Shown here one piece after another: positions 1 to 37,592 of a DNA stretch of 37,592 nt (its first letter is position 1; each line of letters starts with the position of its first letter). The translations under genes and the position numbers were made by a program. The notes beneath the pieces were generated by a model that did not search any database, was not told the DNA's origin, and saw nothing but the letters and a program-made list of their open reading frames with translations. Origin of the DNA: a virus; the IMG/VR virus record IMGVR_UViG_3300045988_073962, positions 1-37,592 of that record. One strand, given 5' to 3'.

Positions 1-119
1 CCTTTTTTGTCGCCCTGATACACCACGACACACAGGAAGGAAGGTGAAGAATCGTGGCACGACTGACGAAGAAGAACGAAGTCTTCTGTGAAGAATATCT
101 GATCGACCTGAACGCGACC
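1..119. repeat. Left copy of a 119-bp terminal direct repeat (identical to 37474-37592)
   Basis: The string ccttttttgtcgccctgatacaccacg...gatcgacctgaacgcgacc is present at 1-119 and again at 37474-37592 with no mismatch. The repeat cuts through the terS coding region, as expected for a circular-assembly overlap. Confidence 0.95.
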
Positions 120-3322: not shown

Positions 3323-4877
3323 GGAATACTGGATCGCCCGCGCCCTTCAACGTGAGAACGAAGCCTATCTTCGCGGCGTCGGGCTAACGGCGAAAATGTT
3401 CCAGGAATACGACCGGGCCGCGAAAGCGATCCGGCGCGACATAGGCGACTTCTATTTGAAGTACGCCGGGAAGTATGGCCTGACATACGATCAGGCCGTC
3501 CGCCTTCTGACCAGGAAGGAGTTCCAGGAATGGAAGGCGACCCTGGGCGAATATATCACCAGGATCGCGGCGGAGCCTGACCCCCGCGTCAAGGCCCTTC
3601 TGACGGCCCAACTGGACGCCCTGTCCACGAACAGCCGTATTTCCCGCCTGGAAGCCCTTCTGGGACAAATCGACCTGAAACTTAATGAACTGTGGGAAAC
3701 CGGCGTGTCCCAGATGAAGGCGGAGTTCGGCGAAACCTTCCGGGAAGGCTACTACAAGAAGGTCTATGACATTCAGTCCCGCGCCGGCTTTATCCATGAG
3801 TTCGCCAAACTGGACGAAAGCGTCGTTGAAAACGTTCTGTCCTATCCCTGGTCCGGGGCTATGTTCTCCGATCGCCTGTGGAGGAACAAACAGGCGCTTC
3901 TGTTCCATGTCCGGGAAACCATCACGCAAGGCGTCATGCAAGGAAAGAGCGTGGCGACCATGTCGAAGGAACTGTCCGCTAAAATGGGCCAGTCCTACAA
4001 GGCCGCCGAACGGCTGATCCGGACCGAAACAACGCATTTCCACAGCGAAGCGGACAAGGCGGCCTATAATGCCGCCGGCGTGGATCAGTACGAATATATC
4101 GCCACCCATGACGCGCTGACCTGTGAAACGTGCGCGGCCCTGGACGGGAAACACTTCAAGTTGAAGGACGCCCAGGCCGGCGTGAACTACCCACCTATGC
4201 ACCCGAACGACCGTTGTACCACAGTCGAATATGACCCGGACGACGCCCTGGACTGGTACAATTCCGGCCAGCCTATGCCGGAAAATATGACATACGAAGA
4301 CTGGTACAGACAGCAAGTCGACGCCCACGGCCCCGGCTATGTTGAAAAGGAGCGCCAGAAGTCGTATAATCAGGGCAAGGACGCGGAGCAGTTCGGCCGG
4401 TATTCCGAACGCCTGGGCGCTGACGCACCGGCCGACCTTGACGCCTTCCAGGAAATGAAATACACAGACCCGGACGCCTGGTCCGATCTGAAATCCTTCT
4501 ATTCCTACAAGGGGCGCGTCCCGGAAGCCACCAGGGCGGACTTCGATCTGTATAAGAAAATCAAGGGAACCGGCATTTTCGGAACAATCAGAGTTCCGCC
4601 GGAGCCTATCGACGCGGCGTCGCTGTGGCTGAACGCCGGCCACGTCGCGGATCACGGCCACAGTGCAACCGAAGCGGAAGCGCGATCGTTCATCGAAAAC
4701 GCTATCTTCTCCCTGAAACGGAAGCACTGGACCGGCGCAGTCTTTACGAACTATTATTCCACAGAAGGCGCGGCCTATGTGCTGAACGCCGACAATGAAA
4801 TCAGAACGGCCTTCAAGCGGGACCAATTCAAGGGAGCCGTGAAGGACGTAATGGAGGTGATCGAGAATGGAAAATAA
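3309..4877 (+). CDS. Head morphogenesis protein (Mu F / SPP1 gp7 family) with a ~190-aa C-terminal extension
   Basis: The central motif YEYIATHDALTCETCAALDGKHF...NYPPMHPNDRCTTV is the conserved MuF/gp7 core. The protein continues about 190 aa beyond it. Confidence 0.85.
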   Translation: MIRNKEYWIARALQRENEAYLRGVGLTAKMFQEYDRAAKAIRRDIGDFYLKYAGKYGLTYDQAVRLLTRKEFQEWKATLGEYITRIAAEPDPRVKALLTAQLDALSTNSRISRLEALLGQIDLKLNELWETGVSQMKAEFGETFREGYYKKVYDIQSRAGFIHEFAKLDESVVENVLSYPWSGAMFSDRLWRNKQALLFHVRETITQGVMQGKSVATMSKELSAKMGQSYKAAERLIRTETTHFHSEADKAAYNAAGVDQYEYIATHDALTCETCAALDGKHFKLKDAQAGVNYPPMHPNDRCTTVEYDPDDALDWYNSGQPMPENMTYEDWYRQQVDAHGPGYVEKERQKSYNQGKDAEQFGRYSERLGADAPADLDAFQEMKYTDPDAWSDLKSFYSYKGRVPEATRADFDLYKKIKGTGIFGTIRVPPEPIDAASLWLNAGHVADHGHSATEAEARSFIENAIFSLKRKHWTGAVFTNYYSTEGAAYVLNADNEIRTAFKRDQFKGAVKDVMEVIENGK

Positions 4878-5043
4878 GAAGTGCTACTGTCCTATCGTGG
4901 ACAGGGAAATCGACGCTATGGACTGTTTCGACGCCGCCCTGGTCTTCGAAGAAATGTCCCCCCTGTCCGAACTTCCTGACTACATGAAGTTCACTGACAG
5001 GAACCAGGAAACCTGTTTGAAGTGCCAGTACCACCCACAATAA
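4867..5043 (+). CDS. Small Cys-rich hypothetical protein (58 aa; CxC ... C ... CxxC)
   Basis: Hand-translated open frame MENKKCYCPIVDREIDAMDCFDAALVFEEMSPLSELPDYMKFTDRNQETCLKCQYHPQ. It is under the 60-aa cutoff of the ORF track, overlaps the MuF stop by 11 nt, and is followed by tandem terminators. Confidence 0.5.
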   Translation: MENKKCYCPIVDREIDAMDCFDAALVFEEMSPLSELPDYMKFTDRNQETCLKCQYHPQ

Positions 5044-5047
5044 AGGA

Positions 5048-5074
5048 ACGTCGCCACAAGGCGGCGTTTTTTTA
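5048..5074 (+). terminator. Rho-independent terminator (first of a tandem pair)
   Basis: acgtcgcc-acaa-ggcggcgt stem-loop (one G-U pair) followed by T7. Confidence 0.75.
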
Positions 5075-5087
5075 TGCCTGTTGATCA

Positions 5088-5118
5088 AGGCGTTCCCCTT
5101 CGCGGGGAGCGCCTTTTT
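5088..5118 (+). terminator. Rho-independent terminator (second of a tandem pair)
   Basis: aggcgttcccc-ttcgc-ggggagcgcct stem (one mismatch) followed by TTTTT. Confidence 0.65.
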
Positions 5119-5210
5119 CATACCCAAAACAGCCGCACCCGCCCGGCGACCAGGCGGGACCGCAAAGCGTGTGGAAGTCACGGTAAAGACAGCGGAGAAA
5201 GGAGCAAACC

Positions 5211-5804
5211 ATGATCACAGAGAGCGTCAAAACCATTCTGGGGGCTGACCTGTCGAACCAGGTCGAAGCGGCCTTGAAGGGCAAGGGCAAGGACGGAAAG
5301 GACGTGGACCTGGTCGTCGGAAACGACGGTTCCTTCGTCCCGGCCGAGAAGTTCAACGGCGCGAACAGCGGCAAGACCAGCGCGGAAAACGCCCTGAAAG
5401 CCGCCGCCGAAGCCTTGAAGGCGATCGGAGGGTCCGGCGATCCCGCGAAGATCGCGGAAGACGTCAAGACCGCCCAGACCACGATCGACACCCTTCGGAC
5501 CGACCACCAGAAGGAAATCGCCAGAATCCAGAAGAACACGGCCCTTCGCCTGGCCCTGGCCGACAAGGTCCACGATCCGGCCGACATCATTTCCCTTCTG
5601 GACCTGGACAAGATCGACGTCGACGACGCCGGCGGCCTGAAAACAGACCTGGAAGGTCTTCTGAAACCCTTGAAGGAATCGAAGCCCTACCTGTTCAAGA
5701 CCCAGGAGCCGTCGAAGGAACCCGACATCAAGGGCGCGAAGCCCGCTGACCCTGGCGCACGTCAGGAGCCGGCCGCAAAGGTCGACGGTCCTGTCGTGAT
5801 CTAA
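5211..5804 (+). CDS. Scaffolding protein
   Basis: 197 aa, rich in Ala/Lys/Glu/Asp and predicted coiled coil. It lies immediately upstream of the capsid gene, with RBS GAAAGGAG. Confidence 0.75.
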   Translation: MITESVKTILGADLSNQVEAALKGKGKDGKDVDLVVGNDGSFVPAEKFNGANSGKTSAENALKAAAEALKAIGGSGDPAKIAEDVKTAQTTIDTLRTDHQKEIARIQKNTALRLALADKVHDPADIISLLDLDKIDVDDAGGLKTDLEGLLKPLKESKPYLFKTQEPSKEPDIKGAKPADPGARQEPAAKVDGPVVI

Positions 5805-7447: not shown

Positions 7448-7834
7448 ATGTTCGGAAACCCTGGCGCAGAGCGCGCCGCGATCGAACTGACCTATGAAGA
7501 CACCGCCACGATCACCAGAACGACCCAACAGACGGGGGCGAACAAGATCACGAAGTCCGTCCCCGGCGTGATTTACAGTGAAATCATTTGCGCGCTGTCG
7601 TATTCAGGAAGCGACAAGAGCGAACAGACGAAGGCACAGAACGAAGTCGACTATGACGCCGTAATCTTCGCCGCGCCTGACCTTCTGGTCCTTCCTGGCG
7701 ACAGTGTGACCTTGAAACGGTTCGGGCGCGACAACCCTTCCAGTCAGATTCTTCTGTCCTTCCAGGTCGTCGGCCGTCCTTCCCTGTATGCAACACACCA
7801 GGAAATCAAGGTGAAGGAAGGTGATCTGGCGTGA
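7448..7834 (+). CDS. Head closure / head-tail adaptor protein
   Basis: ATG 7448 lies 8 nt after AAGGTGG. Assigned by synteny between the connector and tail genes. Confidence 0.55.
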   Translation: MFGNPGAERAAIELTYEDTATITRTTQQTGANKITKSVPGVIYSEIICALSYSGSDKSEQTKAQNEVDYDAVIFAAPDLLVLPGDSVTLKRFGRDNPSSQILLSFQVVGRPSLYATHQEIKVKEGDLA

Positions 7835-8268
7835 CGTTGAATCAATTTCTGGAAGCGGTCGCCGCGAAGCTGACCGGAATCTGGCCGGACCGGAAGGTCC
7901 ATGTCGACGAAATACCGAAGGATTCCGACGGCCAGTTCTTCGTCGGGATCATTGAATCGTCCCAGGAAAAGCACCTGGACCGGCGCCGGAAACGGTCGAT
8001 CCAGTTTGAAGTCCTGTACTTCCTTCGATCGAAGGACACGATGGACTTCAACGCCTGGGCCGAAGAAATGTATGACAACTTTGAAGAACTGACGGTCCAG
8101 GAAGCCCCCGGCAAAACAAGGACGATCCGTCTGACCGGCCAGAAGGCCAGGCCGGACGGGAACAGCCGCGTCTTCCAGTTCCTTTTCGACGCGGACTTCT
8201 TCTTCGTCCTGACACCGCCGGAAATCCCGTTCATGGAAGACCTGGAACATACGGAGGTTATGAAGTAA
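7831..8268 (+). CDS. Neck / tail-completion protein (XkdH-J-like position)
   Basis: GTG start overlaps the upstream stop. 145 aa, assigned by synteny only. Confidence 0.5.
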   Translation: MTLNQFLEAVAAKLTGIWPDRKVHVDEIPKDSDGQFFVGIIESSQEKHLDRRRKRSIQFEVLYFLRSKDTMDFNAWAEEMYDNFEELTVQEAPGKTRTIRLTGQKARPDGNSRVFQFLFDADFFFVLTPPEIPFMEDLEHTEVMK

Positions 8269-8462
8269 TGGCGAAAACGACCAAAAAGGCCGCCGGCACA
8301 GACCAGGCGCCGGCCCCGGCCTTCACAAAGGATCAACTGGTCAAAAGTAAAACCCTGGGCCTTCCCGTGGACGCCGTCATGGCCGTCCTGGAAGACGGGA
8401 AGACCTACACGAAGGATCAGGCCGTCGGCCTGGTCAACGATTTTCTGGAAAGGAAGGTGTGA
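8268..8462 (+). CDS. Small hypothetical structural-module protein
   Basis: TAATG overlap with the upstream gene, RBS ACGGAGG, 64 aa. Confidence 0.5.
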   Translation: MAKTTKKAAGTDQAPAPAFTKDQLVKSKTLGLPVDAVMAVLEDGKTYTKDQAVGLVNDFLERKV

Positions 8463-8465
8463 GTT

Positions 8466-9800
8466 ATGCCTATCGGTGGCGGAACTTTTACCGTTCAAAA
8501 CAAGATTCTTCCCGGCGCATACATCAACTTTGTGAGCCTGGGAAGCGTCGTGAAAATGGGGACGCGCGGGATCGCGGCCCTTCCCCTGGAACTGAACTGG
8601 GGGCCTGAAAACAAGGTCTTTTCCATGTATGCGGAAGACTTCAACAAAAGCGCCCTGAACGTGTTCGGCTATGACCCGACGGACCCCGCCGTCCTTCTGG
8701 TCCGCGAAGCCCTGAAACGCGCCAGGGCCGTTCTGATCTACCGTGTCAATTCCGGCGGCGACAAGGCCACGGCCACGGTCGGCGGAATGACCGTCACGGC
8801 CGCCTGGGGCGGAACGCGCGGAAACGACGTCGCTGTCGCCGTCCTGGCGAACGCTGACGACGCGACGAAGGTCGACGTCGTGACCTACCTTGACGGAATG
8901 GTCGTGGACACCCAGACCGTCGTCAAGGCCGAAGGGTCGGCCGGTCTGAAAGCGAATGACTTCGTGACCTTCGGGTCCGCTTCCGCCCTGGAAGTGGCCG
9001 TCGCGACGAAGCTGACCGGCGGCACGAACGGAACCGTCAACGGCGCCGCCCACACGGCCGCCCTGAACGGCTTCGAGGTCGAAACTTTCAGCGTGATCGG
9101 CTATCCCGGAACCGACAACACGATCAAGGTCCTGTATGCGGCCTTCGTGAAGCGCCTTCGTGACGACGAAGGGAAGAAGATCGTCGGCGTCCTGTACCAG
9201 TACGCCGGGGACAACATCGGCCTGATCAACGTCAAGAACGGCGTCGTCCTGTCCGACGGGACCACCGTGACCGGCGACAAGGCGGTCGCCTGGGTGGCCG
9301 GCGCTTCCGCTGGGGCGGAGATCAACGAAAGCCTGACGAATGACACCTACGACGACGCCGTGGACGTGGACATCAAATATACGAAGTCCCAGTTTGAAGC
9401 GGCGATCCAGGCCGGCGAGTTCGTCTTCTATGCGGACAACGGCGCGGCCCGTGTCCTGACCGACATCAACAGCCTGACCACCTTCGGGGGCGGCGTCACG
9501 GAAGACTGGACGTCGAACCGCGTGATCCGCGTCCTGGACGGCTGGGCGAACGACGTCGCCCGTATCTTCGGCGATTCCTACATCGGCCGCGTGACCAACA
9601 GCGACACCGGCCGTCAGCTTTTCAAGGCCGACCTTGTGTCCCTGGCCTTGCAGTATCAGGGGATCGACGCGATCAGCGACTTCAAGTCCGAAGACATCAT
9701 CATTCAGCAGGGCAACGGGAAACGCGACGTCGCCGTCGATTCCGCCCTGAAACCGAACGACAGTATGGAAAAGCTGTATATGACGACTGTCGTCAACTAA
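8466..9800 (+). CDS. Contractile tail sheath protein (XkdK-like)
   Basis: 444 aa. The N-terminus GGGTFTVQNKILPGAYINF matches the conserved sheath start (GTWTxQNKxRPGxYINF type). The tube gene follows. Confidence 0.9.
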   Translation: MPIGGGTFTVQNKILPGAYINFVSLGSVVKMGTRGIAALPLELNWGPENKVFSMYAEDFNKSALNVFGYDPTDPAVLLVREALKRARAVLIYRVNSGGDKATATVGGMTVTAAWGGTRGNDVAVAVLANADDATKVDVVTYLDGMVVDTQTVVKAEGSAGLKANDFVTFGSASALEVAVATKLTGGTNGTVNGAAHTAALNGFEVETFSVIGYPGTDNTIKVLYAAFVKRLRDDEGKKIVGVLYQYAGDNIGLINVKNGVVLSDGTTVTGDKAVAWVAGASAGAEINESLTNDTYDDAVDVDIKYTKSQFEAAIQAGEFVFYADNGAARVLTDINSLTTFGGGVTEDWTSNRVIRVLDGWANDVARIFGDSYIGRVTNSDTGRQLFKADLVSLALQYQGIDAISDFKSEDIIIQQGNGKRDVAVDSALKPNDSMEKLYMTTVVN

Positions 9801-16891: not shown

Positions 16892-17642
16892 GTCAACGAT
16901 CACCGACAGGGGCGCCGAAGTGCTGACCCGCTTCCTGGCGCAAGGCCGCCAGATCACCCTGATCCGCGCCGCCGTGGGCGACGGCGTGGCGGAAGTCAGC
17001 CCGAACACCCTGTCCGACCTGGTGAACCCCGTCCCGCTGGACGCCCAGATCGGCGAAAAGACCTTCATCGAAGGCGACGTGTCCTATATGAAAATCCCCG
17101 TCCAGGTGACGAACGCCGGCCTGGAAGTGGCCCAGTACGTCCGCGAGGTCGCGACGTATGCCCTGGACGAAAACGGCGCGGCCTTCATGTTCACCTATTC
17201 CTGGATCGACGGCCCGGACAGCGACAACATTCTTCCGGCCTGTTCCTTCCTGGACACCCCGTCAATGGCGGACGAAGGCGACACCGTCCACGTCCACGAC
17301 GTCGCCGTGGTGGTTACGAATCAGGAAAACAGCGCCGTCGCGGTCCAGGTGACGGCGGGGTCCTATGTGACCCGCGCGCAAATGACCGCCTACGCGGCGC
17401 CGCTTCTCCACACACACGCCGCTTCGGACGTGAACGAGAGCAACGGCGACAGCGTCGAAACAGTCCAGCGCCGCCAGGACTACGATATTTCCGCGATCAA
17501 GGAACAACTGGACACCGGCTTCACGGGGACCACCGTGACCCACACCTTCGCGCCGGCGCAACTGGACCAGTGGAAAGGATACAACGGTACTGGACTTCCC
17601 GAAGGGATTCTGGACCCCGCCGCGAACCGGCTTTATTTATGA
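16878..17642 (+). CDS. Tail fibre protein (P2 gpH-like N-terminal domain)
   Basis: ATG 16878 follows GAAGGAGGAAA. The N-terminus ITDRGAEVLTRFLAQGRQITLIRAAVGDG matches the conserved tail-fibre N-terminal (DUF3751-type) pattern. Confidence 0.75.
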   Translation: MARFKSTITDRGAEVLTRFLAQGRQITLIRAAVGDGVAEVSPNTLSDLVNPVPLDAQIGEKTFIEGDVSYMKIPVQVTNAGLEVAQYVREVATYALDENGAAFMFTYSWIDGPDSDNILPACSFLDTPSMADEGDTVHVHDVAVVVTNQENSAVAVQVTAGSYVTRAQMTAYAAPLLHTHAASDVNESNGDSVETVQRRQDYDISAIKEQLDTGFTGTTVTHTFAPAQLDQWKGYNGTGLPEGILDPAANRLYL

Positions 17643-17902
17643 TCCCGTTCGCCTGTACGCCGTCGGAAACGTCGTGCCTGTTATCTAACCTATTCACCGA
17701 ACTTCGGCCCGTGTGCGGCCGCTGTGAGGGCGACAGCGTCGTTCTGTGCGGCCTGACCTATGAAGGGGAGGAACAGACCGTCGTCCTTCGGGACTACGGC
17801 TTCGACTATTCCGGCCGGCGCGAAACCGTTGACCTGATCAGAAAGCGAAGGTGTATCTATGGGAACAAGGCGCAATTTCCAGCGCAAAACGAACGGGACT
17901 GA
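17639..17902 (+). CDS. Hypothetical small Cys-containing protein (possible fibre-associated ORF)
   Basis: ATGA overlap with the tail fibre stop. It overlaps the avd start by 44 nt and has no recognisable motif. Confidence 0.3.
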   Translation: MIPFACTPSETSCLLSNLFTELRPVCGRCEGDSVVLCGLTYEGEEQTVVLRDYGFDYSGRRETVDLIRKRRCIYGNKAQFPAQNERD

Positions 17903-18335
17903 AAGTCCGCTTCACGTCCTTCCTGTGGCGTCGAAGCTGATCGACTACACCCTGGAACTGACCGACAACACGAAGCACTTCCCGAAGAAGGTCCGCTTCT
18001 CTATCGTGAACAGGATTCAGGACCGTGTTCTGGCGATCCGCGACGACCTGGTGGACGCGAACGAAATCTTCCCGATCCTGGACGAACAGGACAAGATCGA
18101 CCGGCTGAAACTTCAACGCCGCGCGCTGACAGGGTGCAAGAAACTTTTGTATCTGATCGAACTGTCGAAGAAGCGCGGCTACATCGACACGGGGACCTTC
18201 GACTATTGGACGAAGCTGACCCTGGACGTCAAGTTTATGACCGCCGCCTGGTATAAGGCCGAAACGGAGCCGAAGGAGCCGACCGAAAAGGCCGACGCCG
18301 AAGCCCCGGAGCCGGCCGCGCCGGCGGAAGGTTAA
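17859..18335 (+). CDS. avd: DGR accessory variability determinant (Avd, four-helix-bundle protein)
   Basis: 158 aa, basic and helical. The pattern ASKLIDYTLELTDNTKHFPKKVRFSIVNRIQDRVLAIRDDLVDAN resembles Avd/23S-IVS-family proteins. It lies immediately upstream of the TR and RT. Confidence 0.85.
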   Translation: MGTRRNFQRKTNGTESPLHVLPVASKLIDYTLELTDNTKHFPKKVRFSIVNRIQDRVLAIRDDLVDANEIFPILDEQDKIDRLKLQRRALTGCKKLLYLIELSKKRGYIDTGTFDYWTKLTLDVKFMTAAWYKAETEPKEPTEKADAEAPEPAAPAEG

Positions 18336-18359
18336 TTGAATATTAGGGTACGGCCTGAC

Positions 18360-18463
18360 CCCCGAACGCCGGCAACGCGAACAACGCGCGGAATGTCAAC
18401 ACCGACGGCAGTCTGAACAACAACAACGCCTGGAATGGCAACAACGGCGTCCGGCCGGATTTG
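18360..18463 (+). repeat. DGR template repeat (TR)
   Basis: A non-coding 104-bp segment between avd and the RT. It aligns without gaps to 20343-20446 and 32944-33046. Its 30 adenines sit mostly in AAC/AAT triplets, and the differences to both copies fall almost only on those adenines. Confidence 0.92.
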
Positions 18464-18627
18464 GTGGAAAACGTGACCGAGTAGGGCGACGAACCTGAAA
18501 GCAGAGGACCCCAACAAAGGAGGCCGTATCCTTCCCGACGCCGGAAAGGCCAGGGTAAACACATGACCGTCGACGCGAGGGCTTCGGCTACGACGCCCAG
18601 ACTATAAGCGACGGGGAGGTTTTTATT

Positions 18628-19758
18628 ATGAAAAGCGAAGTCACACAGACACCGCCTTCCGACTTCGCTGTCATGTCCGACTTCAACAACCTGTATCAGT
18701 CCTACCTGGACGCCCGGAAAGGGAAACGCTGGAAAATGGCGGTCGTCCGCTACGAAGTGAACGCGCTGGAAAACACCATGTTCCTTCACTATATGCTGAC
18801 ATCGAAGAAATACCGCCCTTCTCCATACAACACGTTTCTGATCCATGAACCGAAGGAAAGGGTGATCATGTATAACGGATTCAAGGACAAGATCGTCCAG
18901 CATAGCCTGTGCGACTATGTCCTGGGACCCGCGCTGTCGAAGTCGTTCATATATGACAATTACGCCAGTCAGGAAGGCAAAGGAACACACTTCGGCCTTG
19001 ACCGCCTGAAATATTTCATGCAGAAGTATTACAGGCAGAACGGGCCGGCCGGCTGGGTATTGAAATGCGATATAACAAAGTATTTCTACCGTATCAATCA
19101 CGACGTTTTGAAGTCACAGCTTCGTCGGCTGATCCACGATCCCGACGTCCTGTGGCTTCTTGATTTGATCATAGATTCCACCGAAGGAACGGGAATCCCG
19201 ATCGGAAATCACACTTCACAGTGGTTCGCGGTCCTGTACCTGTCCGGAATGGACCACATGATCAAAGAACGCCTGGGAATCAAGTTCTATGGCCGCTACA
19301 TGGACGACTTCTATTTGATTCACCAGGACAAGGACTATTTGATCTATTGCCTGGAAGAAATCAAGAAGTATCTGGTCCCCCTGGGCCTGGAACTAAATCA
19401 CAAAACCGCGATCTTCCCGCTGTCCCAGGGGATCGACTTCCTGGGATTCAGGACGTACATGACGGACAGTGGGAAGGTCGTCCGAAAAATACGCCGCGAC
19501 AGCAAGAACCGGATCAGGCGGAAATTGAAGAAGTTCCGTCACCTTTTGGACGAAGGCCGGATCACCTTCGACACGGTGGTCCAGTCCTATTCGTCATGGA
19601 CCGGTCACGCCGGCCACGGCAACAGTCACCACCTGATCAGGCAGATGGACGAACTGTTCTTCGACCTGTTCAAAAAAGAATTGGAGGAATACCATGTCAA
19701 AACGAATGTCGACGTTACCCGTTGGCGCGATCGTGAAGTCGGTCAATACGAAGTATAA
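18628..19758 (+). CDS. DGR reverse transcriptase
   Basis: 376 aa. It has the YMDD catalytic box (FYGRYMDDFYLIH) and the DGR-type motif 4 (IPIGNHTSQWFAVLYL). It sits next to Avd and the TR, with RBS GGGGAGG. Confidence 0.92.
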   Translation: MKSEVTQTPPSDFAVMSDFNNLYQSYLDARKGKRWKMAVVRYEVNALENTMFLHYMLTSKKYRPSPYNTFLIHEPKERVIMYNGFKDKIVQHSLCDYVLGPALSKSFIYDNYASQEGKGTHFGLDRLKYFMQKYYRQNGPAGWVLKCDITKYFYRINHDVLKSQLRRLIHDPDVLWLLDLIIDSTEGTGIPIGNHTSQWFAVLYLSGMDHMIKERLGIKFYGRYMDDFYLIHQDKDYLIYCLEEIKKYLVPLGLELNHKTAIFPLSQGIDFLGFRTYMTDSGKVVRKIRRDSKNRIRRKLKKFRHLLDEGRITFDTVVQSYSSWTGHAGHGNSHHLIRQMDELFFDLFKKELEEYHVKTNVDVTRWRDREVGQYEV

Positions 19759-21400
19759 CGGCGCTGTGATCCGCTTCGTTATTGGCCGCCAGGCTTCCGA
19801 TCGTGTCGGTCTGGTGACGGAAAAGATCATCACCCTGAAAGCCTTCGACGCGAAGGAGCCTTCCAACAGCAACAGCGACCGGAAGAATTACGGCAACAAC
19901 CGCGCCAGCGTGTCGAACATTCTTCTGTGGCTGAACAGCGCGGCGGCCGCCGGCGGCTGGTACACGGCCCAGCACAGCGCCGACGCCCCGCCCACGAACG
20001 CGAATGTCTGGTCCAACTATAACGAGTACGACCAGGAAGCCGGCTTCCTTTCCTTCTTTGAAGCGGACTTCCGGAACGCCCTTCTGGACGACACGATCAC
20101 CGTCGCGAAAAATACCGTCACCGACGGCGGCGGTTCAGAGCAGATCACGCGGAAGGTCCGCCTTCTGACCGAAACGGAAGTCGGCCTGGGCAACGAAAAC
20201 GGGATCGTCGAGGGGACCCAGTGGCCCCTGTTTACCGACGCAAACAGCCGGAAAGCATACCCGACGGCCGAAGCGGTCAGCAAGTCCGAATATACCAGTT
20301 CGAGCCTGAACGCTTCGTCCCCCTGGTGGTGGTGGCTTCTGACCCCGAACGCCGGCAACGCGTACAACGCGCGGCATGTCAACCTCGGCGGCAGTCTGAG
20401 CAACGACGGCGCCTGGGATGGCAACGGCGGCGTCCGGCCGGCTTTGTTTTTGGCCCCTGATACTCTGGTATCTGATACAACAGACACAGACGGGGCCTAT
20501 ATCATTCAGTGGAATCAACCGCCGACCACCCCTTCGAGTATTTCCCACGCGACCCCCCAGGCGGGAAAATCCCTGACGATCACGACCGGCGGGTCCACCG
20601 ATCCGGAAGGAAACGCGATCCAGTACGTCTGGGAACGCCGGGTCGATTCCGGAAACTATATCCAGATCGGGATCACAACGGCGAAGACGATCACCGACAC
20701 CGTCCCGACGTCCGGGACGAACTACCAGGTCCGCGTGAAAGCCGTTGACGCAAACGGCGCGGAATCGGCGTACAAAACCGGAACGGCCACGGCCATTTCC
20801 TACAACACCGCCCCCGTGATCAGTGGAAGCAATCAGAACGTCGGAGCGAAGACGGCCCCGCTGACCTATAACTACACGGTCACAGACGCCGAAGCGTCGT
20901 CCCAGACCTTGACCGTCACGGAAACCGTGACCAACGGGTCCGAAACAATCACCCTTCGCCAGTACACGGCCACAAGCGGCGCCCAGAACACGGCGGACCT
21001 GACGTCTGTGTGGCTTCGCCTTCTGGCCGGGACCCATGTCCTGAAAATCGTCGCTTCCGACGGCGTGGGCGGGACGGCCACACGACAGATCACATTCAGC
21101 CGGACCGTGAACAGGATCGCCGCGTCCCGCGCGATCAGTACCGACGCTATGGTGACGAAGGTCTTCCTGTCCCTGTACCCGGCGGACATTCCGGCCGACG
21201 CGGTCCTTCACTGTGAGGTCACGAACAACCCGTTCGACACGACCCCCGTCTGGGAAGATATTTCTTCCAAAGTCGGCCGCTTCGTCCACATTTTCCAGAA
21301 CACCACCGCCGCGAGGGGCTACGGCCTGGCCTACCGCTTCACGATCACGAAGGGGAATCAAACGGCCGAGGTCGTCCAGGCGACGGTCCGGTTCGCGTAA
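19694..21400 (+). CDS. DGR target protein 1 (N-terminal lectin-like variable domain, C-terminal FN3/Ig-like domains)
   Basis: 568 aa, with RBS GGAGGA 5 nt before ATG 19694. It contains VR1 (aa ~217-251, WWWWLLTPNAGNAYNARHVNLGGSLSNDGAWDGNGGVRPALFL), followed by FN3-like sequence (..YQVRVKAVDANGAESAY..). Confidence 0.88.
   Translation: MSKRMSTLPVGAIVKSVNTKYNGAVIRFVIGRQASDRVGLVTEKIITLKAFDAKEPSNSNSDRKNYGNNRASVSNILLWLNSAAAAGGWYTAQHSADAPPTNANVWSNYNEYDQEAGFLSFFEADFRNALLDDTITVAKNTVTDGGGSEQITRKVRLLTETEVGLGNENGIVEGTQWPLFTDANSRKAYPTAEAVSKSEYTSSSLNASSPWWWWLLTPNAGNAYNARHVNLGGSLSNDGAWDGNGGVRPALFLAPDTLVSDTTDTDGAYIIQWNQPPTTPSSISHATPQAGKSLTITTGGSTDPEGNAIQYVWERRVDSGNYIQIGITTAKTITDTVPTSGTNYQVRVKAVDANGAESAYKTGTATAISYNTAPVISGSNQNVGAKTAPLTYNYTVTDAEASSQTLTVTETVTNGSETITLRQYTATSGAQNTADLTSVWLRLLAGTHVLKIVASDGVGGTATRQITFSRTVNRIAASRAISTDAMVTKVFLSLYPADIPADAVLHCEVTNNPFDTTPVWEDISSKVGRFVHIFQNTTAARGYGLAYRFTITKGNQTAEVVQATVRFA
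20343..20446 (+). repeat. DGR variable repeat 1 (VR1)
   Basis: Gap-free alignment to the TR (offset 1983) gives 13 differences. Twelve are at TR adenines and one is at TR C18402. Confidence 0.92.
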
Positions 21401-21414: not shown

Positions 21415-21882
21415 ATGTTCAACCCTGAAACCTGTGACCACGTCAGCATGAAGGACGCCCAGGAGAAGGAGCGCCAGAACCCGGCGGCCCAGGCCGCCAG
21501 GGCCGCGTCGATCGCCTTCGTGTCCCTGGCCGAATCCGGCCAGATCGACGACGTCACGGCCACGGAAAACGTCAGTCAGTTCAGCCCGTGGGCCTACCCT
21601 GTCGCCTACAAGGCCGGGAATATCCGGGAGTTCGGCGGCGAACTGTTCCGCTGTGTCCAGGATCACACGTCACAAGCGGACTGGACCCCGACGGCGGCCG
21701 CGTCCCTGTGGACGAAGATCGGGGACCCCGGCGAGGAATGGCCGGCCTGGTCACAGCCTGTCGGCGCACACGACGCCTACAACGCCGGCGACAAAGTGTC
21801 CCACAACGGGAAACACTGGTCTTCGGACCTGGACGCGAACGTCTGGGAACCCGGCGTCTACGGCTGGACCGAACAGAACTAA
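21415..21882 (+). CDS. Carbohydrate-binding (CBM5/12-like) protein
   Basis: Two repeats of the aromatic pattern [31 protein letters not shown] and [31 protein letters not shown], typical of chitin-binding type-3 / CBM5_12 modules. Confidence 0.65.
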
Positions 21883-25809: not shown

Positions 25810-25831
25810 CTGTTCTATGGGAGGAATTACA

Positions 25832-26878
25832 ATGAAACGACGCAGATTCAAACACTTGTCCTGGGACGACCGTCTGAAAATCGAATCCGGCCTGAAACAC
25901 GGCGATCCCGTCCAGAAGATCGCGGACGACATCGGCGTCCACCGGAACACGATCTATAATGAGATCAAGCGCGGCCAGTATGAACACCTTAATTCTGATC
26001 TGACCACCGAAACCCGGTACAGTCCAGAGATAGCCGAAGCCGCGTACAGGGCGAACCTGGCGGCAAAGGGGCCGGACCTGAAAATCGGGTCCGATCGGCG
26101 CCTGGCCGAACACATCGAAAGCCGCATTGTAAACGACGGCTATTCCCCGGCGGCGGTCCTGGGTGAAATCAAGACCCAGGGGATCGAGTTCGACACGACG
26201 ATCTGTGAAGCGACATTGTATTCCTACATCAAGAAAGGCGTCTTCCTAAACCTGGAACAGTGTCACCTTCCCCGCAAGGGGAAGAAGAAGCGGTCCTATA
26301 CCCGCGTTCAGAAGAAGGCGGCCAAGGCGTCAGCGGGGACCAGTATCGAAAAGCGGCCCCCAGAGATCGACGACCGCGCCGAACTGGGCGACTGGGAAAT
26401 GGACTGTGTCGTCGGGAAGAAAAGGACGAAGGAAACCCTTCTGGTCCTGTCGGAGCGGAAAAGCCGGAAAGAAATCATCATCAAGATGAAGGACAAGACC
26501 GCCGACAGCGTCGTCCGCGCCCTGGATCGCCTTGAACGCCGCTATGGGGCTATGTTCAGCAAGGTCTTCCGGACGATCACCGTCGACAACGGGACGGAGT
26601 TTTCCGACGTGGAGGGCCTGGAACGGTCCTGTCTTCGCAAAGGCCAGAGCCGGACGAAGGTCTACTACTGCCACCCCTATTCTTCCTATGAGCGGGGAAC
26701 AAACGAAAATATAAACGGAATGATCCGCCGCTGGTTCCCGAAGGGGACCGACTTCGGGAAGGTCACGGCGAAGGCGATCAAGGCTGTCGAAGACTGGATC
26801 AACACCTATCCGCGCGGAATCCTGGGATTCTTCACAGCGGACGACATCTTCCTTCCCTGGGTCGCTTCCCTGGCCTGA
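25832..26878 (+). CDS. IS30-family DDE transposase
   Basis: It has an N-terminal HTH (LSWDDRLKIESGLKHGDPVQKIADDIGVHRNTIYNEIKRG). The catalytic signature is GDWEMD ... TVDNGTEF ... YERGTNENINGMIRRWFPKG. ATG 25832 follows GGGAGGA. I could not find terminal inverted repeats by eye. Confidence 0.88.
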   Translation: MKRRRFKHLSWDDRLKIESGLKHGDPVQKIADDIGVHRNTIYNEIKRGQYEHLNSDLTTETRYSPEIAEAAYRANLAAKGPDLKIGSDRRLAEHIESRIVNDGYSPAAVLGEIKTQGIEFDTTICEATLYSYIKKGVFLNLEQCHLPRKGKKKRSYTRVQKKAAKASAGTSIEKRPPEIDDRAELGDWEMDCVVGKKRTKETLLVLSERKSRKEIIIKMKDKTADSVVRALDRLERRYGAMFSKVFRTITVDNGTEFSDVEGLERSCLRKGQSRTKVYYCHPYSSYERGTNENINGMIRRWFPKGTDFGKVTAKAIKAVEDWINTYPRGILGFFTADDIFLPWVASLA

Positions 26879-26909: not shown

Positions 26910-26938
26910 TTGACTTTTGCGCTCGCGAGATTTATTAT
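26910..26938 (+). promoter_or_regulatory. Sigma-A/70-type promoter TTGACT-17-TATTAT (candidate early rightward promoter)
   Basis: The -35 TTGACT is at 26910-26915 and the -10 TATTAT at 26933-26938. The spacer contains the palindrome CTCGCGAG. Confidence 0.6.
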
Positions 26939-32125: not shown

Positions 32126-32536
32126 ATGAGGAAGTACAAACTGACGATCCCTGGGATTCTCCCAGGGCTGAACGAATACATCGACGCGGAACGGTCCTAT
32201 AAGGGCAAATACAAGGCCGCGTCCATGAAGAAGCAAGCCCAGAACGTGATCGGCTACATGGTGAAGACCCAACTTCGGGGGGTCCGCTTCACCCGCCCCG
32301 TGGTGATCCATTACCTGTGGATCGAGCCGAGCCGCCGGCGCGACAAGGACAACGTCGCGTTTGCGAAGAAGTTCATTCAGGACGCCCTGGTGGAAGGCGG
32401 CGTCCTTCGGAATGACGGCTGGGCCGAAATTGAGCATTTCACAGACGACTTCGCCGTGGACCCGAAGAACCCCCGCGTCGAAGTCACGATCGAAGAATAT
32501 GAAGGAGGAAAACACAATGGTAAAAGTAAAAATTAA
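32126..32536 (+). CDS. rusA: RusA-family Holliday junction resolvase
   Basis: 136 aa from ATG 32126. The segment RRRDKDNVAFAKKFIQDALVEGGVLRNDGW matches the RusA D-x-DN ... D-x-L ... DD catalytic pattern. Confidence 0.8.
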   Translation: MRKYKLTIPGILPGLNEYIDAERSYKGKYKAASMKKQAQNVIGYMVKTQLRGVRFTRPVVIHYLWIEPSRRRDKDNVAFAKKFIQDALVEGGVLRNDGWAEIEHFTDDFAVDPKNPRVEVTIEEYEGGKHNGKSKN

Positions 32537-33200
32537 GGACCTGGCGCCCGGCGCCTTCTTCGACATCGGCCCCGTGAAGGTCAAGGTCATGGAACACTTC
32601 GCGGACGGGAAAACCCTTCTGACGGCCACGGAGCCGATCGGGAACCGCCCCTTCACCGTCCGCCCCTTCACCTACAAGCGCCAGGACCCGGAGCCGAATC
32701 CGAACGACTTCCGGTTCAGCACCTTGAAGGACGACCTAAACACCGACTTCCTGGCGGCCGTGGCCGCCGGCGGCGTGATCCCGGTCGACCGGATTCTGGA
32801 CGCGGCCTGGGACCTGACCGCCAGCGACGGCGTGAACCGTTACGGCTATGTGACCTGTAAGGTCGCTATGCTTCCCGAAACACTGGTCCGGAGATACTAC
32901 GACGCCGGCCTGTTGGAGATCGACGACTGGGAATGGACAATCACCCCGAACGCCGGCAACGCGTACTACGCGCGGCATGTATACACCGACGGCAGTCTGA
33001 TCTACTACGGCGCCTGGGGTGGCAACTACGGCGTCCGGCCGGCTTTATTCGTGGATTCTGACATCTGCCTGTCGCTGGAACAGGACGAAGTCGATCTGTC
33101 GAATCAGGCCCTTCTGGGTGAGTTCACGTCAAAGGAACTGGTCACAGAAGTCCTTCGCCGGATCGCCGCCGGCGAGAAGGACCCGGACGAAGACGAATGA
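32517..33200 (+). CDS. DGR target protein 2 (small, non-structural-module protein carrying VR2)
   Basis: ATG 32517 lies 8 nt after GGAGG, giving 227 aa. It contains WEWTITPNAGNAYYARHVYTDGSLIYYGAWGGNYGVRPALFV, in-frame with the TR-homologous DNA. There is no N-terminal hydrophobic segment. Confidence 0.85.
   Translation: MVKVKIKDLAPGAFFDIGPVKVKVMEHFADGKTLLTATEPIGNRPFTVRPFTYKRQDPEPNPNDFRFSTLKDDLNTDFLAAVAAGGVIPVDRILDAAWDLTASDGVNRYGYVTCKVAMLPETLVRRYYDAGLLEIDDWEWTITPNAGNAYYARHVYTDGSLIYYGAWGGNYGVRPALFVDSDICLSLEQDEVDLSNQALLGEFTSKELVTEVLRRIAAGEKDPDEDE
32944..33046 (+). repeat. DGR variable repeat 2 (VR2), remote from the cassette
   Basis: Gap-free alignment to the TR (offset 14584) gives 14 internal differences. 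Thirteen are at TR adenines and one is at TR C18397, a synonymous GTC-to-GTA change. Confidence 0.9.
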
Positions 33201-36791: not shown

Positions 36792-37301
36792 ATGGACGCA
36801 AAACAGACCAAGCGGGACAGCGTGGAGAAGACCACCGGCCGCGTTTATGACATCTTGAAGAACCACGACCAGGAAACCCGGACGATCGAAGCCCAGATCG
36901 ACGCAGAGCGCGCCGCCCTGGAAGAAGACCTGGCCGAAATCCGGTCCAGAGCATACCCGCGCGGGGTCCGCTATGACACGCCGCGCGTCCAGTCGTCCCC
37001 TGACCCTGACGGGATTCTTGTGAAGGTCGCCGCCGCGATCGAGCGCCGGACAGACCGGACGAAAAGAGCCGTCGCCGCCCTGGAAGAACGACAGCGCCAG
37101 ATCGAGCGCGTACACGACGCCGTCCTGGACATGGACGCGAAGTCGAAGATCGTCCTTCTGACGCTATACTACCCGCGCCGGACCTATGAACAGGCCGCCG
37201 AAGCCCTGGGCGTCGACGTGTCAACCGTCAGCCGTCAGAGGAAGACCGCCGTCGACCGGCTGACCCGGAAACTGATCCGCCTGTATGGGGAAATCAAATG
37301 A
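36792..37301 (+). CDS. Late-gene transcriptional regulator with a sigma-70 region-4-like HTH (RinA/ArpU-like position)
   Basis: C-terminal KIVLLTLYYPRRTYEQAAEALGVDVSTVSRQRKTAVDRLTRKL follows the sigma r4 / LuxR-type HTH pattern. It is the last gene before terS. Confidence 0.65.
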   Translation: MDAKQTKRDSVEKTTGRVYDILKNHDQETRTIEAQIDAERAALEEDLAEIRSRAYPRGVRYDTPRVQSSPDPDGILVKVAAAIERRTDRTKRAVAALEERQRQIERVHDAVLDMDAKSKIVLLTLYYPRRTYEQAAEALGVDVSTVSRQRKTAVDRLTRKLIRLYGEIK

Positions 37302-37320
37302 AGACCCCCTGGCGGAAATC

Positions 37321-37380
37321 TTTTTGCACATGATTGCACATCTTTGCAAGTGTCTGCATATACTTGCACTTTTACACAAT
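37321..37380 (+). repeat. Five (plus one degenerate) 10-bp-phased TnnTTGCAnn repeats
   Basis: Consecutive 10-mers: tttttgcaca / tgattgcaca / tctttgcaag / tgtctgcata / tacttgcact / tttacacaat. The TGCA core sits at exactly 10-bp intervals (37326, 37336, 37346, 37356, 37366). Confidence 0.85.
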
Positions 37381-37393
37381 GCCCGTATATGAT
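37364..37393 (+). promoter_or_regulatory. Candidate late promoter TTGCAC-18-TATGAT
   Basis: The last TTGCAC repeat (37364-37369) is followed 18 nt later by TATGAT (37388-37393). The match to consensus is weak, so the site would probably depend on an activator. Confidence 0.35.
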
Positions 37394-37451
37394 AAAGTGG
37401 TATATGGGAACCTTGCCCCGGTTCCCCCTCCTTTTTCATAGGGGCGCAAAG

Positions 37452-37481
37452 AAGGAACGTCTTCACCGGCGTTCCTTTTTT
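37452..37481 (+). terminator. Hairpin plus T6 immediately upstream of terS (terminator-like leader structure)
   Basis: aaggaacg-(10-nt loop)-cgttcctt followed by tttt. It is preceded by a second hairpin, gggaacc-ttgcccc-ggttccc, at 37406-37426. Confidence 0.55.
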
Positions 37482-37592
37482 GTCGCCCTGATACACCACG
37501 ACACACAGGAAGGAAGGTGAAGAATCGTGGCACGACTGACGAAGAAGAACGAAGTCTTCTGTGAAGAATATCTGATCGACCTGAACGCGACC
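37474..37592. repeat. Right copy of the 119-bp terminal direct repeat (it re-reads the terS upstream region and first codons)
   Basis: Exact identity to 1-119 by direct reading. Confidence 0.95.

What the first reader, a model, noticed from the sequence alone, without database searches (positions are those of the whole stretch)
17859..21400. Diversity-generating retroelement (avd - TR - RT - target) inside the tail-fibre/lysis junction of the phage
A non-coding 104-bp segment (TR, 18360-18463) lies between an Avd-like four-helix-bundle gene and a reverse transcriptase. The RT carries YMDD and the DGR-type IGNHTSQ motif. The TR is repeated in-frame inside the gene just downstream (VR1, 20343-20446). 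My base-by-base alignment gives 13 differences, 12 of them at TR adenines: AAC to TAC, AGC, GAC or GGC; AAT to CAT or GAT; GAT to GCT. The TR is built of AAC/AAT codons (TR reads PNAGNANNARNVNTDGSLNNNNAWNGNNGVRP), the classic design for adenine-directed mutagenic retrohoming. The cassette order (target downstream of the RT, overlapping it by 65 nt) differs from the canonical target-avd-TR-RT order of Bordetella phage BPP-1.
Basis: partly seen in the sequence, partly recalled or inferred. Interest (0 to 1): 0.9.

Follow-up and report, generated by a model that had tools for sequence, protein, structure and literature searches.

The report
Phage mutagenic retroelement with two targets
This gut-bacterium phage carries a complete diversity-generating retroelement that rewrites the binding loops of two of its own proteins; the call is correct, but this two-target layout has already been published for related gut phages.

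Summary
The cassette runs avd (17859-18335), non-coding TR (18360-18458), a structured spacer (18467-18627), RT (18628-19758) and target 1 (19694-21400, holding VR1 at 20343-20441).

A second, remote target was found at 32517-33200, holding VR2 at 32944-33042. In the 99-nt core, 11 of 12 TR/VR1 mismatches and 12 of 13 TR/VR2 mismatches fall on TR adenines (Fisher p = 3e-6 and 6e-7). It is an IMH/IMH* boundary difference, not mutagenesis.

Across 30 related TR/VR pairs, 421 of 437 mismatches sit at TR adenines. In 118 natural variants of target 2, variation is confined to codons whose TR template contains A. The RT's best solved relative is the Bordetella phage BPP-1 DGR RT (E = 9e-43; next best 9e-11).

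The order avd-TR-RT-target, the N-terminal VR and the small target 12.6 kb away all match phage nd12 ("tentaclin" DGRs, PMC10743442). They also match Faecalibacterium phages Lelie and CP11 (PMC11792537). The host is probably Lawsonibacter asaccharolyticus.

Verdict: a real, recently active DGR and a new member of a known kind.

The parts
17859..18335 (+). avd, the accessory variability determinant (158 aa, with an acidic Pro/Ala/Glu-rich C-terminal tail)
   Evidence: PHROG 3206 'Avd protein of DGR', E = 4.3e-26. NCBIfam NF033474 DivGenRetAVD, E = 3.6e-7, below the curated cut-off. PF05635, E = 0.004. A single-sequence AF2 model shows four helices at pLDDT 68. Its best TM-score matches are the IVP family (2gsc, 2rld) and BPP-1 Avd (4dwl_D, 8ub7_E), with target-normalised TM 0.80-0.83, although all Foldseek E-values exceed 1e-3.
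18360..18458 (+). Template repeat (TR), mutagenic core. It is non-coding here, holds 29 adenines, and ends in the GC-rich 13-mer GGCGTCCGGCCGG (18446-18458).
   Evidence: The TR is nearly invariant among close relatives (variable fraction 0.02, against 0.27 for VR1).
18459..18466 (+). IMH*-like 3' boundary of the TR (ATTTGGTG). The VRs read CTTTGTTT (VR1) or CTTTATTC (VR2) here.
   Evidence: The A/C difference at 18459 is fixed in all 31 VRs of the related loci. Homology between TR and VR ends within a few bases after it.
18467..18627 (+). Spacer (Sp) between TR and RT: a conserved, structured non-coding RNA segment, presumed to be the protein-binding and priming part of the DGR RNA.
   Evidence: Variable fraction 0.03 among close relatives. 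The consensus fold has 37 pairs, 7 of them with compensatory changes. 25 cells changed on both sides, against 6.5 in shuffles (0 of 500 reach it) and at most 3 in the slid controls. There is a sub-threshold, full-length match to Rfam RT-2 RNA (18.7 bits, gathering score 40, E = 0.024). The same match at the same position scores 20 bits in L016, L017 and L020.
18628..19758 (+). DGR reverse transcriptase (376 aa), with the IGNHTSQ and YMDD motifs
   Evidence: Best PDB match is 8ub7_A, labelled 'DGR ribonucleoprotein reverse transcriptase': E = 8.9e-43 over residues 18-344. The next best hits are at 9e-11. RVT_1, E = 2.4e-17. PHROG 1423, E = 3e-135. All retron, group II and DRT models score far below their cut-offs.
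19694..21400 (+). Target 1 (568 aa): a tentaclin-type protein with an N-terminal DUF6273 domain followed by about 310 aa
   Evidence: DUF6273, E = 9.5e-28, residues 40-254. PHROG 10993 'Hoc-like head decoration', E = 3e-202, full length. 44% identity over residues 1-555 to the nd12 tentaclin, E = 7e-147.
20343..20441 (+). VR1 (codons 217-249 of target 1, at the C-terminal edge of DUF6273), followed by the IMH-like sequence CTTTG
   Evidence: It is a local variation hotspot (0.27, against 0.07-0.10 in the flanking coding sequence) among three genomes that are 93-96% identical.
32517..33200 (+). Target 2 (227 aa): a stand-alone DUF6273-type domain with an acidic C-terminal helix. It sits in the replication module, and its start overlaps the end of the RusA-like gene (32126-32536) by 20 nt.
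   Evidence: PHROG 9958, E = 7e-44, full length. DUF6273, E = 6.6e-5, just below the cut-off. 31% identity to nd12_tgt2, E = 5e-18. The same DnaC-like / RusA / tgt2 order occurs in a Lawsonibacter prophage.
32944..33042 (+). VR2 (codons 143-175 of target 2)
   Evidence: In 118 natural variants, mean column entropy is 1.17 bits inside the VR and 0.058 outside. All 13 positions templated by AAY carry 7-14 residue types. Codons without A are invariant or nearly so.

Best explanation
This is a complete diversity-generating retroelement (DGR) in a temperate, contractile-tailed phage of a gut Oscillospiraceae host, probably Lawsonibacter asaccharolyticus.

Inferred mechanism, from what is established for the BPP-1 DGR:
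1. The avd-TR-spacer region is transcribed.
2. The RT, together with Avd, binds the structured spacer RNA.
3. The complex copies the TR into cDNA and misincorporates opposite template adenines.
4. The cDNA replaces the homologous variable repeats, using the GC-rich 13-mer and the short IMH at the 3' end of each VR as the directional boundary.

One TR feeds two targets.
- VR1 lies at the C-terminal edge of the N-terminal DUF6273 (C-type-lectin-like) domain of a 568-aa 'tentaclin'. Its gene lies between the tail-fibre and lysis genes.
- VR2 lies in a 227-aa stand-alone DUF6273 protein encoded 12.6 kb away, among replication genes.

Thirteen AAY codons and three single-A codons allow about 1e17 peptide variants per target with no stop codons.

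Shown here: all components are present and intact, the mismatches are adenine-specific, the TR and spacer are conserved, the spacer shows covariation, and both VRs are hypervariable in natural populations.

Inferred, not shown: the biochemical steps, activity of this particular genome copy, and the ligands of the two targets.
For: TR/VR statistics:
- In the window, 11 of 12 (VR1) and 12 of 13 (VR2) core mismatches are at TR adenines (p = 2.7e-6 and 6.0e-7).
- In 30 distinct TR/VR pairs from related IMG/VR contigs, 421 of 437 mismatches (96%) are at TR adenines. All 29 adenine positions are hit at least once, and all 31 VRs are different.
- Among three genomes 93-96% identical, the variable fraction is 0.02 for TR, 0.03 for Sp, 0.034 for RT and 0.27 for VR1.

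Target 2 in nature: the best 120 of 1250 homologues are 92-96% identical variants of 226-227 aa. In the 118 that are 227 aa long, variation sits on the codons templated by A.

Proteins:
- RT: best PDB relative is 8ub7_A at 8.9e-43, against 9e-11 for group II and 'retron-type' RTs. IGNHTSQ aligns with the matching IGSLTSQ stretch of 8ub7_A.
- Avd: PHROG 3206 at 4e-26, and a four-helix model matching 4dwl and 8ub7 Avd chains at TM about 0.8.

Spacer RNA: 7 covarying pairs, with controls clean.

Layout: it is identical to the published nd12 DGR. There the TR is at 17850, VR1 lies 1987 nt further on and VR2 another 12113 nt beyond that. In the window the offsets are 1983 and 12601.

Host: a prophage 88-96% identical over the replication and packaging modules lies in L. 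asaccharolyticus GCA_003112755.1.
Against: - No data come from this genome's own population, such as mapped reads. Activity is inferred at lineage level only.
- Each VR carries one non-A mismatch: 18402 C to T in VR1, and 18397 C to A (synonymous) in VR2. These are ordinary point changes or TR drift.
- No conserved hairpin follows the VRs. The GGCCCC/GGGGCC stem after VR1 is broken in several relatives. A BPP-1-style cruciform target-recognition element is therefore not supported.
- Avd fails the curated NCBIfam cut-off and has no sequence-level PDB hit.
- The lectin-like fold of the targets was not verified here, because the AF2 model of target 2 failed (pLDDT 39.8).
Confidence: 0.93

Rival explanations
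1. Fossil DGR. The components are present, but this genome copy, or the whole sub-lineage, no longer performs retrohoming. The VR differences would be relics of past activity.
For: No read-level data exist for this genome. One non-A mismatch per VR shows some time has passed since the last homing event, or that the TR has drifted. PMC11792537 reports that related two-target phages (Lelie, CP11) showed no VR read heterogeneity in culture.
Against: The RT, avd, TR and spacer are all intact and under strong conservation (variable fraction 0.02-0.05). Genomes with an identical TR (window and L001) carry different VR1 sequences, and their TR/VR1 mismatches are at adenines but for one each. All 31 VRs in the relatives are unique. 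More than a hundred target 2 variants at 92-96% identity exist in public data.
Confidence: 0.08
2. Ordinary paralogous repeats. The three copies are a duplicated coding motif diverging by normal mutation and selection, and the neighbouring RT is unrelated (retron, group II intron or defence RT).
For: Both targets share a homologous DUF6273 domain, so some sequence similarity would exist without a DGR.
Against: The third copy (TR) is non-coding and lies directly upstream of the RT. Mismatches are 96% at adenines of that copy (p about 1e-6 in the window alone). Outside the repeat the two targets align at only about 32% amino-acid identity with long gaps. Within the repeat the DNA is identical except at TR adenines. 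The RT matches the BPP-1 DGR RT about 32 orders of magnitude better than any retron or group II RT. It fails every retron and DRT cut-off.
Confidence: 0.01
3. Assembly artefact. The repeat copies were created by misassembly of a metagenomic contig.
For: The window comes from an assembly, as the 119-nt terminal overlap shows. One relative, L024, looks rearranged or chimeric.
Against: The copies are not identical, and each is in frame within a different intact gene or in the intergenic TR position. The same arrangement recurs in about 30 independent IMG/VR contigs and in GenBank phage nd12. Target 2 and its neighbouring genes also recur in an isolate genome of Lawsonibacter.
Confidence: 0.01

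Closest known systems
DGR of gut phage nd12 (GenBank OR777946; 'tentaclin' DGRs, Int J Mol Sci 2023, PMC10743442)
   Same: Same order: avd, TR, RT, then target 1 overlapping the RT end. VR1 lies about 1.98 kb downstream of the TR, in the N-terminal DUF6273 domain of a target about 570 aa long. A second, small DUF6273 target with a VR lies about 12 kb further on, in the replication region. TR to VR1 to VR2 spacing is 1987 / 12113 nt in nd12 and 1983 / 12601 nt here. Target 1 is 44% identical over its full length and target 2 is 31% identical. Both are small myovirus-type genomes from the human gut.
   Different: This is a different phage. There is no megablast match to any GenBank phage, and DNA identity to nd12 is only about 67% over part of the cassette. 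The RT/target overlap is 65 nt here and 16 nt in nd12. The window's target 2 is shorter (227 aa against 297 aa) and lacks the N-terminal extension of nd12_tgt2. The spacer RNA of nd12 gives no RT-2 match. No nd12-like prophage or host was known, whereas this lineage has a Lawsonibacter prophage.
Faecalibacterium phages Lelie (Toutatis-like) and CP11 (Microbiol Spectr 2024, PMC11792537)
   Same: One DGR with two variable regions. Both a large and a small target protein contain DUF6273, with the VR at the C-terminal end of that domain. Adenine-specific variation is seen in alignments of cognate genomes.
   Different: Different host genus and a different phage backbone. The sequences were not compared directly here. 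tblastn of target 1 finds Faecalibacterium phages only at about 34-36% identity over part of its length.
Bordetella phage BPP-1 DGR (mtd-avd-TR-brt), the mechanistic prototype
   Same: An RT of the same clade, a four-helix Avd and a TR immediately upstream of the RT with a structured spacer between them. The TR is rich in AAY codons, it ends in a GC-rich element followed by an IMH/IMH* difference, and the target is reported as C-type-lectin-like.
   Different: In BPP-1 the single target lies upstream of avd and carries its VR at the extreme C-terminus (established knowledge). Here target 1 is downstream of the RT with an N-terminal-domain VR, and there is a second, distant target. No conserved hairpin follows the VRs. 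The spacer weakly resembles Rfam RT-2, not RT-10, the motif assigned to BPP-1 (PMC5737381).
Hoc-like DGR targets of Faecalibacterium phages FP_Mushu and FP_Brigit (PHROG 10993)
   Same: The C-terminal about 200 aa of target 1 are 34-36% identical to these proteins. They share a PHROG family annotated 'Hoc-like head decoration'.
   Different: Only partial-length similarity: FP_Mushu matches the C-terminal third and FP_Brigit matches residues 118-554. The 'head decoration' label is an annotation, not a tested location.

Membership tests
Diversity-generating retroelement (DGR) | Reverse transcriptase of the DGR clade, with the DGR-type [I/L/V]GxxxSQ motif and YxDD | tested here: met
   Best PDB hit is 8ub7_A (DGR RNP RT), E = 8.9e-43 over residues 18-344. 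The next best (group II / 'retron-type') are at 9e-11. IGNHTSQ aligns with IGSLTSQ, and YMDD is present. All retron, Drt and group II models score far below their cut-offs. No formal phylogeny was built.
Diversity-generating retroelement (DGR) | A template repeat and one or more variable repeats whose differences are restricted to TR adenines | tested here: met
   11 of 12 and 12 of 13 core mismatches are at A (p = 2.7e-6 and 6.0e-7). 421 of 437 are at A in 30 related TR/VR pairs.
Diversity-generating retroelement (DGR) | The TR lies next to the RT gene, is conserved, and is not itself under diversification | tested here: met
   The TR is intergenic and ends 169 nt upstream of the RT start. 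Its variable fraction among close relatives is 0.02, against 0.27 for VR1.
Diversity-generating retroelement (DGR) | Accessory protein Avd (a small basic four-helix bundle). It is present in most DGRs but not all. | tested here: met
   PHROG 3206 'Avd protein of DGR', E = 4.3e-26. NF033474, E = 3.6e-7, below cut-off. The four-helix AF2 model matches 4dwl_D and 8ub7_E at target-normalised TM 0.80-0.82. Sequence searches of the PDB found nothing.
Diversity-generating retroelement (DGR) | A directional boundary at the VR 3' end: a GC-rich element plus an IMH that differs from IMH* in the TR | tested here: met
   GGCGTCCGGCCGG is shared by TR, VR1 and VR2. It is followed by a fixed A (TR) versus C (all 31 VRs) and then loss of homology. 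Its function was not tested.
Diversity-generating retroelement (DGR) | Hairpin or cruciform downstream of the VR. This is a BPP-1 feature and is not universal. | tested here: not met
   DNA folds are not better than shuffles (z = -1.6 and -0.6). The candidate stem after VR1 is disrupted in L001, L004, L011 and L016.
Diversity-generating retroelement (DGR) | The VR encodes the ligand-binding surface of a C-type-lectin or Ig-fold domain | tested here: inconclusive
   Both VRs map to the C-terminal end of DUF6273. Homologues were modelled as C-lec in PMC10743442. My AF2 model of target 2 was unusable (pLDDT 39.8). A DUF6273 profile hits the N-terminal domain of IgA protease 9qa6_A (E = 1.7e-14), but its fold class was not examined.
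Diversity-generating retroelement (DGR) | Demonstrated mutagenic retrohoming: cDNA synthesis and VR replacement | not testable with these tools
   Only population-level footprints are available.
Tentaclins (PMC10743442) | N-terminal C-lec/DUF6273 domain carrying the VR | tested here: met
   DUF6273, residues 40-254, E = 9.5e-28. VR1 covers codons 217-249 of 568.
Tentaclins (PMC10743442) | [quoted passage not shown] | tested here: inconclusive
   Pfam detects no Ig domain. However, the protein aligns over residues 1-555 with the nd12 tentaclin (44% identity, E = 7e-147). [quoted passage not shown] No structure was predicted, and the consensus residues were not checked.
Rfam RF03077 RT-2 RNA | Score at or above the family's gathering threshold (40 bits) | tested here: not met
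   18.7 bits (E = 0.024) over the full model at 18467-18635. 20 bits at the same position in L016, L017 and L020. No hit in nd12. This is a resemblance, not membership.
Retron, group II intron or defence-associated RT (DRT / Abi) | Score above the curated family cut-off, with the cognate ncRNA, intron domains or effector present | tested here: not met
   TIGR04416 scores 102.6 against a cut-off of 300, retron St85 32 against 235, and Drt2-5 17-56 against 200-550. There are no Rfam group II or retron hits.

The most novel reading that the evidence does not exclude
Target 2 may not be a virion receptor-binding protein. It could be an early or middle-expressed intracellular, DGR-diversified binding module, for example a binder of host defence or superinfection factors.

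Points in favour:
- It is encoded inside the replication operon. Its start overlaps the RusA-like resolvase gene.
- It lies upstream of the sigma-70-r4-like regulator and the terminator-like and promoter-like sites that precede the terminase genes.
- It has no signal peptide by eye and shows no counterpart of target 1's C-terminal region.
- This position is conserved from this phage to nd12, although the proteins share only 31% identity.

A smaller novel point: the TR-RT spacer links the orphan Rfam motif RT-2 to DGRs.
Probability: 0.12. Interest if true: 0.7.

Novelty: new member of a known kind. Interest (0 to 1): 0.3.

Why it matters
This is a clean, complete example of a two-target DGR in a gut phage, and the lineage has a sequenced bacterial lysogen (Lawsonibacter asaccharolyticus GCA_003112755.1). 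nd12-like phages lacked any known prophage or host. That makes the tentaclin-type DGR experimentally approachable. Three open questions could be tested directly:
- where tentaclin and the small target sit in the virion or the cell;
- what they bind;
- whether the spacer RNA primes cDNA synthesis.

Nothing here changes the current picture of DGRs. The architecture, the N-terminal VR and the remote small target have all been described.

Tried and rejected
- AF2 model of target 2. It used a 43-row alignment of near-identical variants plus the target 1 N-terminal domain, and it failed (pLDDT 39.8). The homologue search returned only 92-96% identical variants among its best 120 hits, so no deep alignment could be built. 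No fold comparison was possible for the targets.
- Avd against the PDB by sequence. phmmer and a 7-sequence profile both found no Avd. Only the fold comparison recovered 4dwl and 8ub7, and only with weak E-values.
- BPP-1-like hairpin downstream of the VRs. It is neither significant nor conserved.
- Rfam at gathering thresholds. Nothing was found in the window. The sub-threshold RT-2 hit was followed up, but it stays at half the gathering score and is absent in nd12.
- tRNA scan. None found.
- Megablast of 25 kb of the window against GenBank phages. No match.
- Promoter and terminator scan around the cassette. No more sites than in shuffles, so no separate transcription unit can be claimed.
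- Folding of the whole avd-end-to-RT RNA. It is not more stable than shuffles (z = -1.2). Support for structure comes only from covariation in the spacer.
- L002 VR1. It shows many non-A mismatches in my ungapped register. I put this down to an indel shifting the register rather than to real non-A mutagenesis, and left it out of the pooled count.
- An upstream second VR in L018 and L024. This briefly suggested a different target location. In L024 the VR sits in the same DnaC-like / putative RusA-like / tgt2 context, judged by ORF order and size, on a contig that lacks the head and tail genes. L018 was not examined further.

Full report
**1. Observation**

The repeat finder reports one three-copy direct-repeat family, at 18359-18477, 20342-20460 and 32943-33061. 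MAFFT and an ungapped register comparison show no indels.

VR2 differs at 15 positions, 13 of them at A.

One refinement matters. The A to C change at 18459 is present in every one of the 31 VRs in related contigs. It is a fixed TR/VR boundary difference (IMH* versus IMH), not a product of mutagenesis.

In the 99-nt core (18360-18458; 29 A, 70 non-A) the mismatches are 11 A + 1 non-A for VR1 and 12 A + 1 non-A for VR2. The Fisher p-values are 2.7e-6 and 6.0e-7.

In the VR reading frame the TR reads PPNAGNANNARNVNTDGSLNNNNAWNGNNGVRP. All 29 adenines are at codon positions 1 or 2. Thirteen codons are AAY. No stop codon can arise, and about 1.25e17 peptides are reachable.

**2. Components**

- **avd (17859-18335).** It matches PHROG 3206 'Avd protein of DGR' (E = 4e-26). 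It matches NCBIfam DivGenRetAVD only weakly (E = 4e-7, below cut-off). A single-sequence AF2 model gives four helices at pLDDT 68. Its best TM-score matches are the IVP/Avd family, including BPP-1 Avd 4dwl_D and 8ub7_E (target-normalised TM 0.80-0.82). The Foldseek E-values are weak.
- **RT (18628-19758, 376 aa).** It contains IGNHTSQ and YMDD. Its best solved relative is 8ub7_A, the RT of the DGR ribonucleoprotein (E = 8.9e-43). Group II and 'retron-type' RTs follow at 9e-11 or worse. It fails all curated cut-offs for group II, retron, Drt and Abi families.
- **Target 1 (19694-21400, 568 aa).** It overlaps the RT by 65 nt. It has DUF6273 at residues 40-254 (E = 9.5e-28), and VR1 lies at codons 217-249.
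- **Target 2 (32517-33200, 227 aa).** The third repeat copy lies in this separate gene, a stand-alone DUF6273-type protein (PHROG 9958, E = 7e-44). VR2 lies at codons 143-175.

**3. Context**

The window is a complete phage genome with a 119-nt terminal overlap. The genes identified are:
- TerS, TerL, portal, Mu-F-like head protein, major head protein, sheath, tape measure, baseplate and tail fibre;
- the DGR cassette;
- a CBM5/12 protein, endolysin and holin;
- an IS30-like DDE transposase;
- replication genes including an exonuclease, a DnaC-like loader and a RusA-like resolvase;
- target 2, several small ORFs and a sigma-70-r4-like regulator.

A prophage 88-96% identical over the replication and packaging modules sits in Lawsonibacter asaccharolyticus GCA_003112755.1. 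It has the same DnaC-like / RusA / target 2 order. That species, or a close relative, is the likely host.

**4. Evidence of activity in nature**

Thirty-four IMG/VR contigs encode a related RT at 74-99% identity. Most hold the TR upstream of the RT and a VR about 1.98 kb downstream.

In 30 distinct TR/VR pairs, 421 of 437 mismatches (96%) are at TR adenines (A to G 195, A to T 156, A to C 70). All 29 adenine positions are hit, and every VR is unique.

Among the window and two relatives 93-96% identical to it, the variable fraction is:

| Region | Variable fraction |
|---|---|
| TR | 0.02 |
| Spacer | 0.03 |
| RT | 0.034 |
| VR1 | 0.27 |
| Rest of target 1 | 0.07-0.10 |

For target 2, the protein database returns 1250 homologues, and the best 120 are variants 92-96% identical to the query. 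In the 118 of these that are 227 aa long, mean column entropy is 1.17 bits inside the VR and 0.058 outside. The 13 Asn-templated positions carry 7-14 residue types each, while codons lacking A are essentially invariant.

**5. RNA and target-site features**

The 161-nt spacer between TR and RT is highly conserved. Its consensus fold has 37 pairs, 7 of them with compensatory changes. Twenty-five cells changed on both sides, against 6.5 in shuffles (0 of 500 reach it) and at most 3 in the slid controls.

The spacer gives a full-length but sub-threshold match to Rfam RT-2 RNA (18.7 bits against a gathering score of 40). The same match recurs at 20 bits in three relatives and is absent in nd12. The RT-n motifs were described as RT-associated RNAs. 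RT-10 was assigned to the BPP-1 TR-RT spacer, and others were speculated to serve other DGRs (PMC5737381).

TR and both VRs share GGCGTCCGGCCGG, followed by A in the TR or C in the VRs. Homology then ends. No conserved hairpin follows the VRs.

**6. Comparison with what is known**

Target 1 is 44% identical over its full length (E = 7e-147) to target 1 of phage nd12. Target 2 is 31% identical to nd12_tgt2.

In nd12 the TR is at 17850, VR1 lies 1987 nt further on and VR2 another 12113 nt beyond that. This is essentially the same geometry as here (1983 and 12601 nt).

PMC10743442 describes exactly this arrangement. [quoted passage not shown] It also describes the small DUF6273-only target 2.

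PMC11792537 reports large and small DUF6273 target pairs in Faecalibacterium phages Lelie and CP11.

Wu et al. 2018 classify avd-TR-RT cores with variable target positions as architecture B1. They also note non-adjacent targets within prophages (PMC5758913).

The departure from BPP-1 order is therefore real but already catalogued. The phage itself has no close GenBank phage relative.

**7. Limits**

- I could not verify the lectin-like fold, because the AF2 model of target 2 was unusable.
[quoted passage not shown] Its function is unknown (PMC12402451).
- Activity of this particular genome copy, the ligands, and the virion location of either target remain inferred.

**8. Verdict**

This is a genuine, complete and recently active DGR of the published tentaclin / two-target type, in a Lawsonibacter-type temperate myophage. 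Interest is modest.

The most novel reading still open is that the small target in the replication module is a non-virion diversified binder (probability about 0.12).

Noticed in passing
window 1-119 and 37474-37592: An exact 119-nt direct repeat at the two ends of the window. The contig is a circular or terminally redundant complete genome with a unit length of 37473 bp.
   Followed up: partly
window 25817-26878 (+), junction near 26922: The only integrase candidate is an IS30-like DDE transposase (HTH_38 + rve; PHROG 4646, E = 3e-136). nd12 carries an 'IS30 family transposase' at the equivalent position. In the Lawsonibacter prophage (L036), homology to the window starts at window 26922, just after this gene. 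The phage may therefore integrate with a DDE transposase rather than a tyrosine or serine recombinase.
   Followed up: partly
window 18467-18635 (+); also L016 2083-2255, L017 1198-1370, L020 3554-3726: The TR-RT spacer gives a full-length but sub-threshold match (18.7-20 bits, gathering score 40) to the orphan Rfam motif RT-2 RNA (RF03077). This hints that RT-2 may be a DGR spacer RNA class. No match was found in nd12.
   Followed up: partly
L024 1-15650 (IMGVR_UViG_3300045988_188013): This relative has the target 2 gene (4654-5355) only 3.8 kb upstream of the TR (9176). Head and tail genes and avd are missing, and baseplate-like ORFs (7527-8989) abut the TR. It is either a deletion derivative or a chimeric assembly. 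L018 also has its second VR upstream of the TR in locus coordinates.
   Followed up: partly
profile of window 19694-20473 and 32517-33197 with homologues (alignment A4): The DUF6273 profile matches the N-terminal domain (residues 14-261) of a gut-bacterial IgA protease with a solved structure (PDB 9qa6_A, E = 1.7e-14). The function of that domain is reported as unknown (PMC12402451).
   Followed up: partly
window 21415-21882 (+): A 155-aa protein with two CBM5/12 carbohydrate-binding repeats (E = 5e-16) lies between target 1 and the endolysin. The same gene follows the tentaclin in L024.
   Followed up: no
window 17570-17902 (+), likely start near 17639: A small conserved ORF (PHROG 21058, unknown function, E = 9e-22) lies between the tail-fibre gene and avd and overlaps the avd start by 44 nt.
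   Followed up: no
window 36792-37426 (+): A sigma-70 region-4-like regulator (36792-37301) is followed by two promoter-like sites (37335-37398) and a terminator-like hairpin (37406-37426), just upstream of TerS. This may be the early/late transcription boundary, and target 2 lies on its early side.
   Followed up: no
homologue search with window 32517-33200: The best 120 database hits are nearly all clusters of one to a few sequences, at 92-96% identity to the query. DGR hypervariation appears to inflate the number of separate clusters for this one protein in the clustered database.
   Followed up: partly
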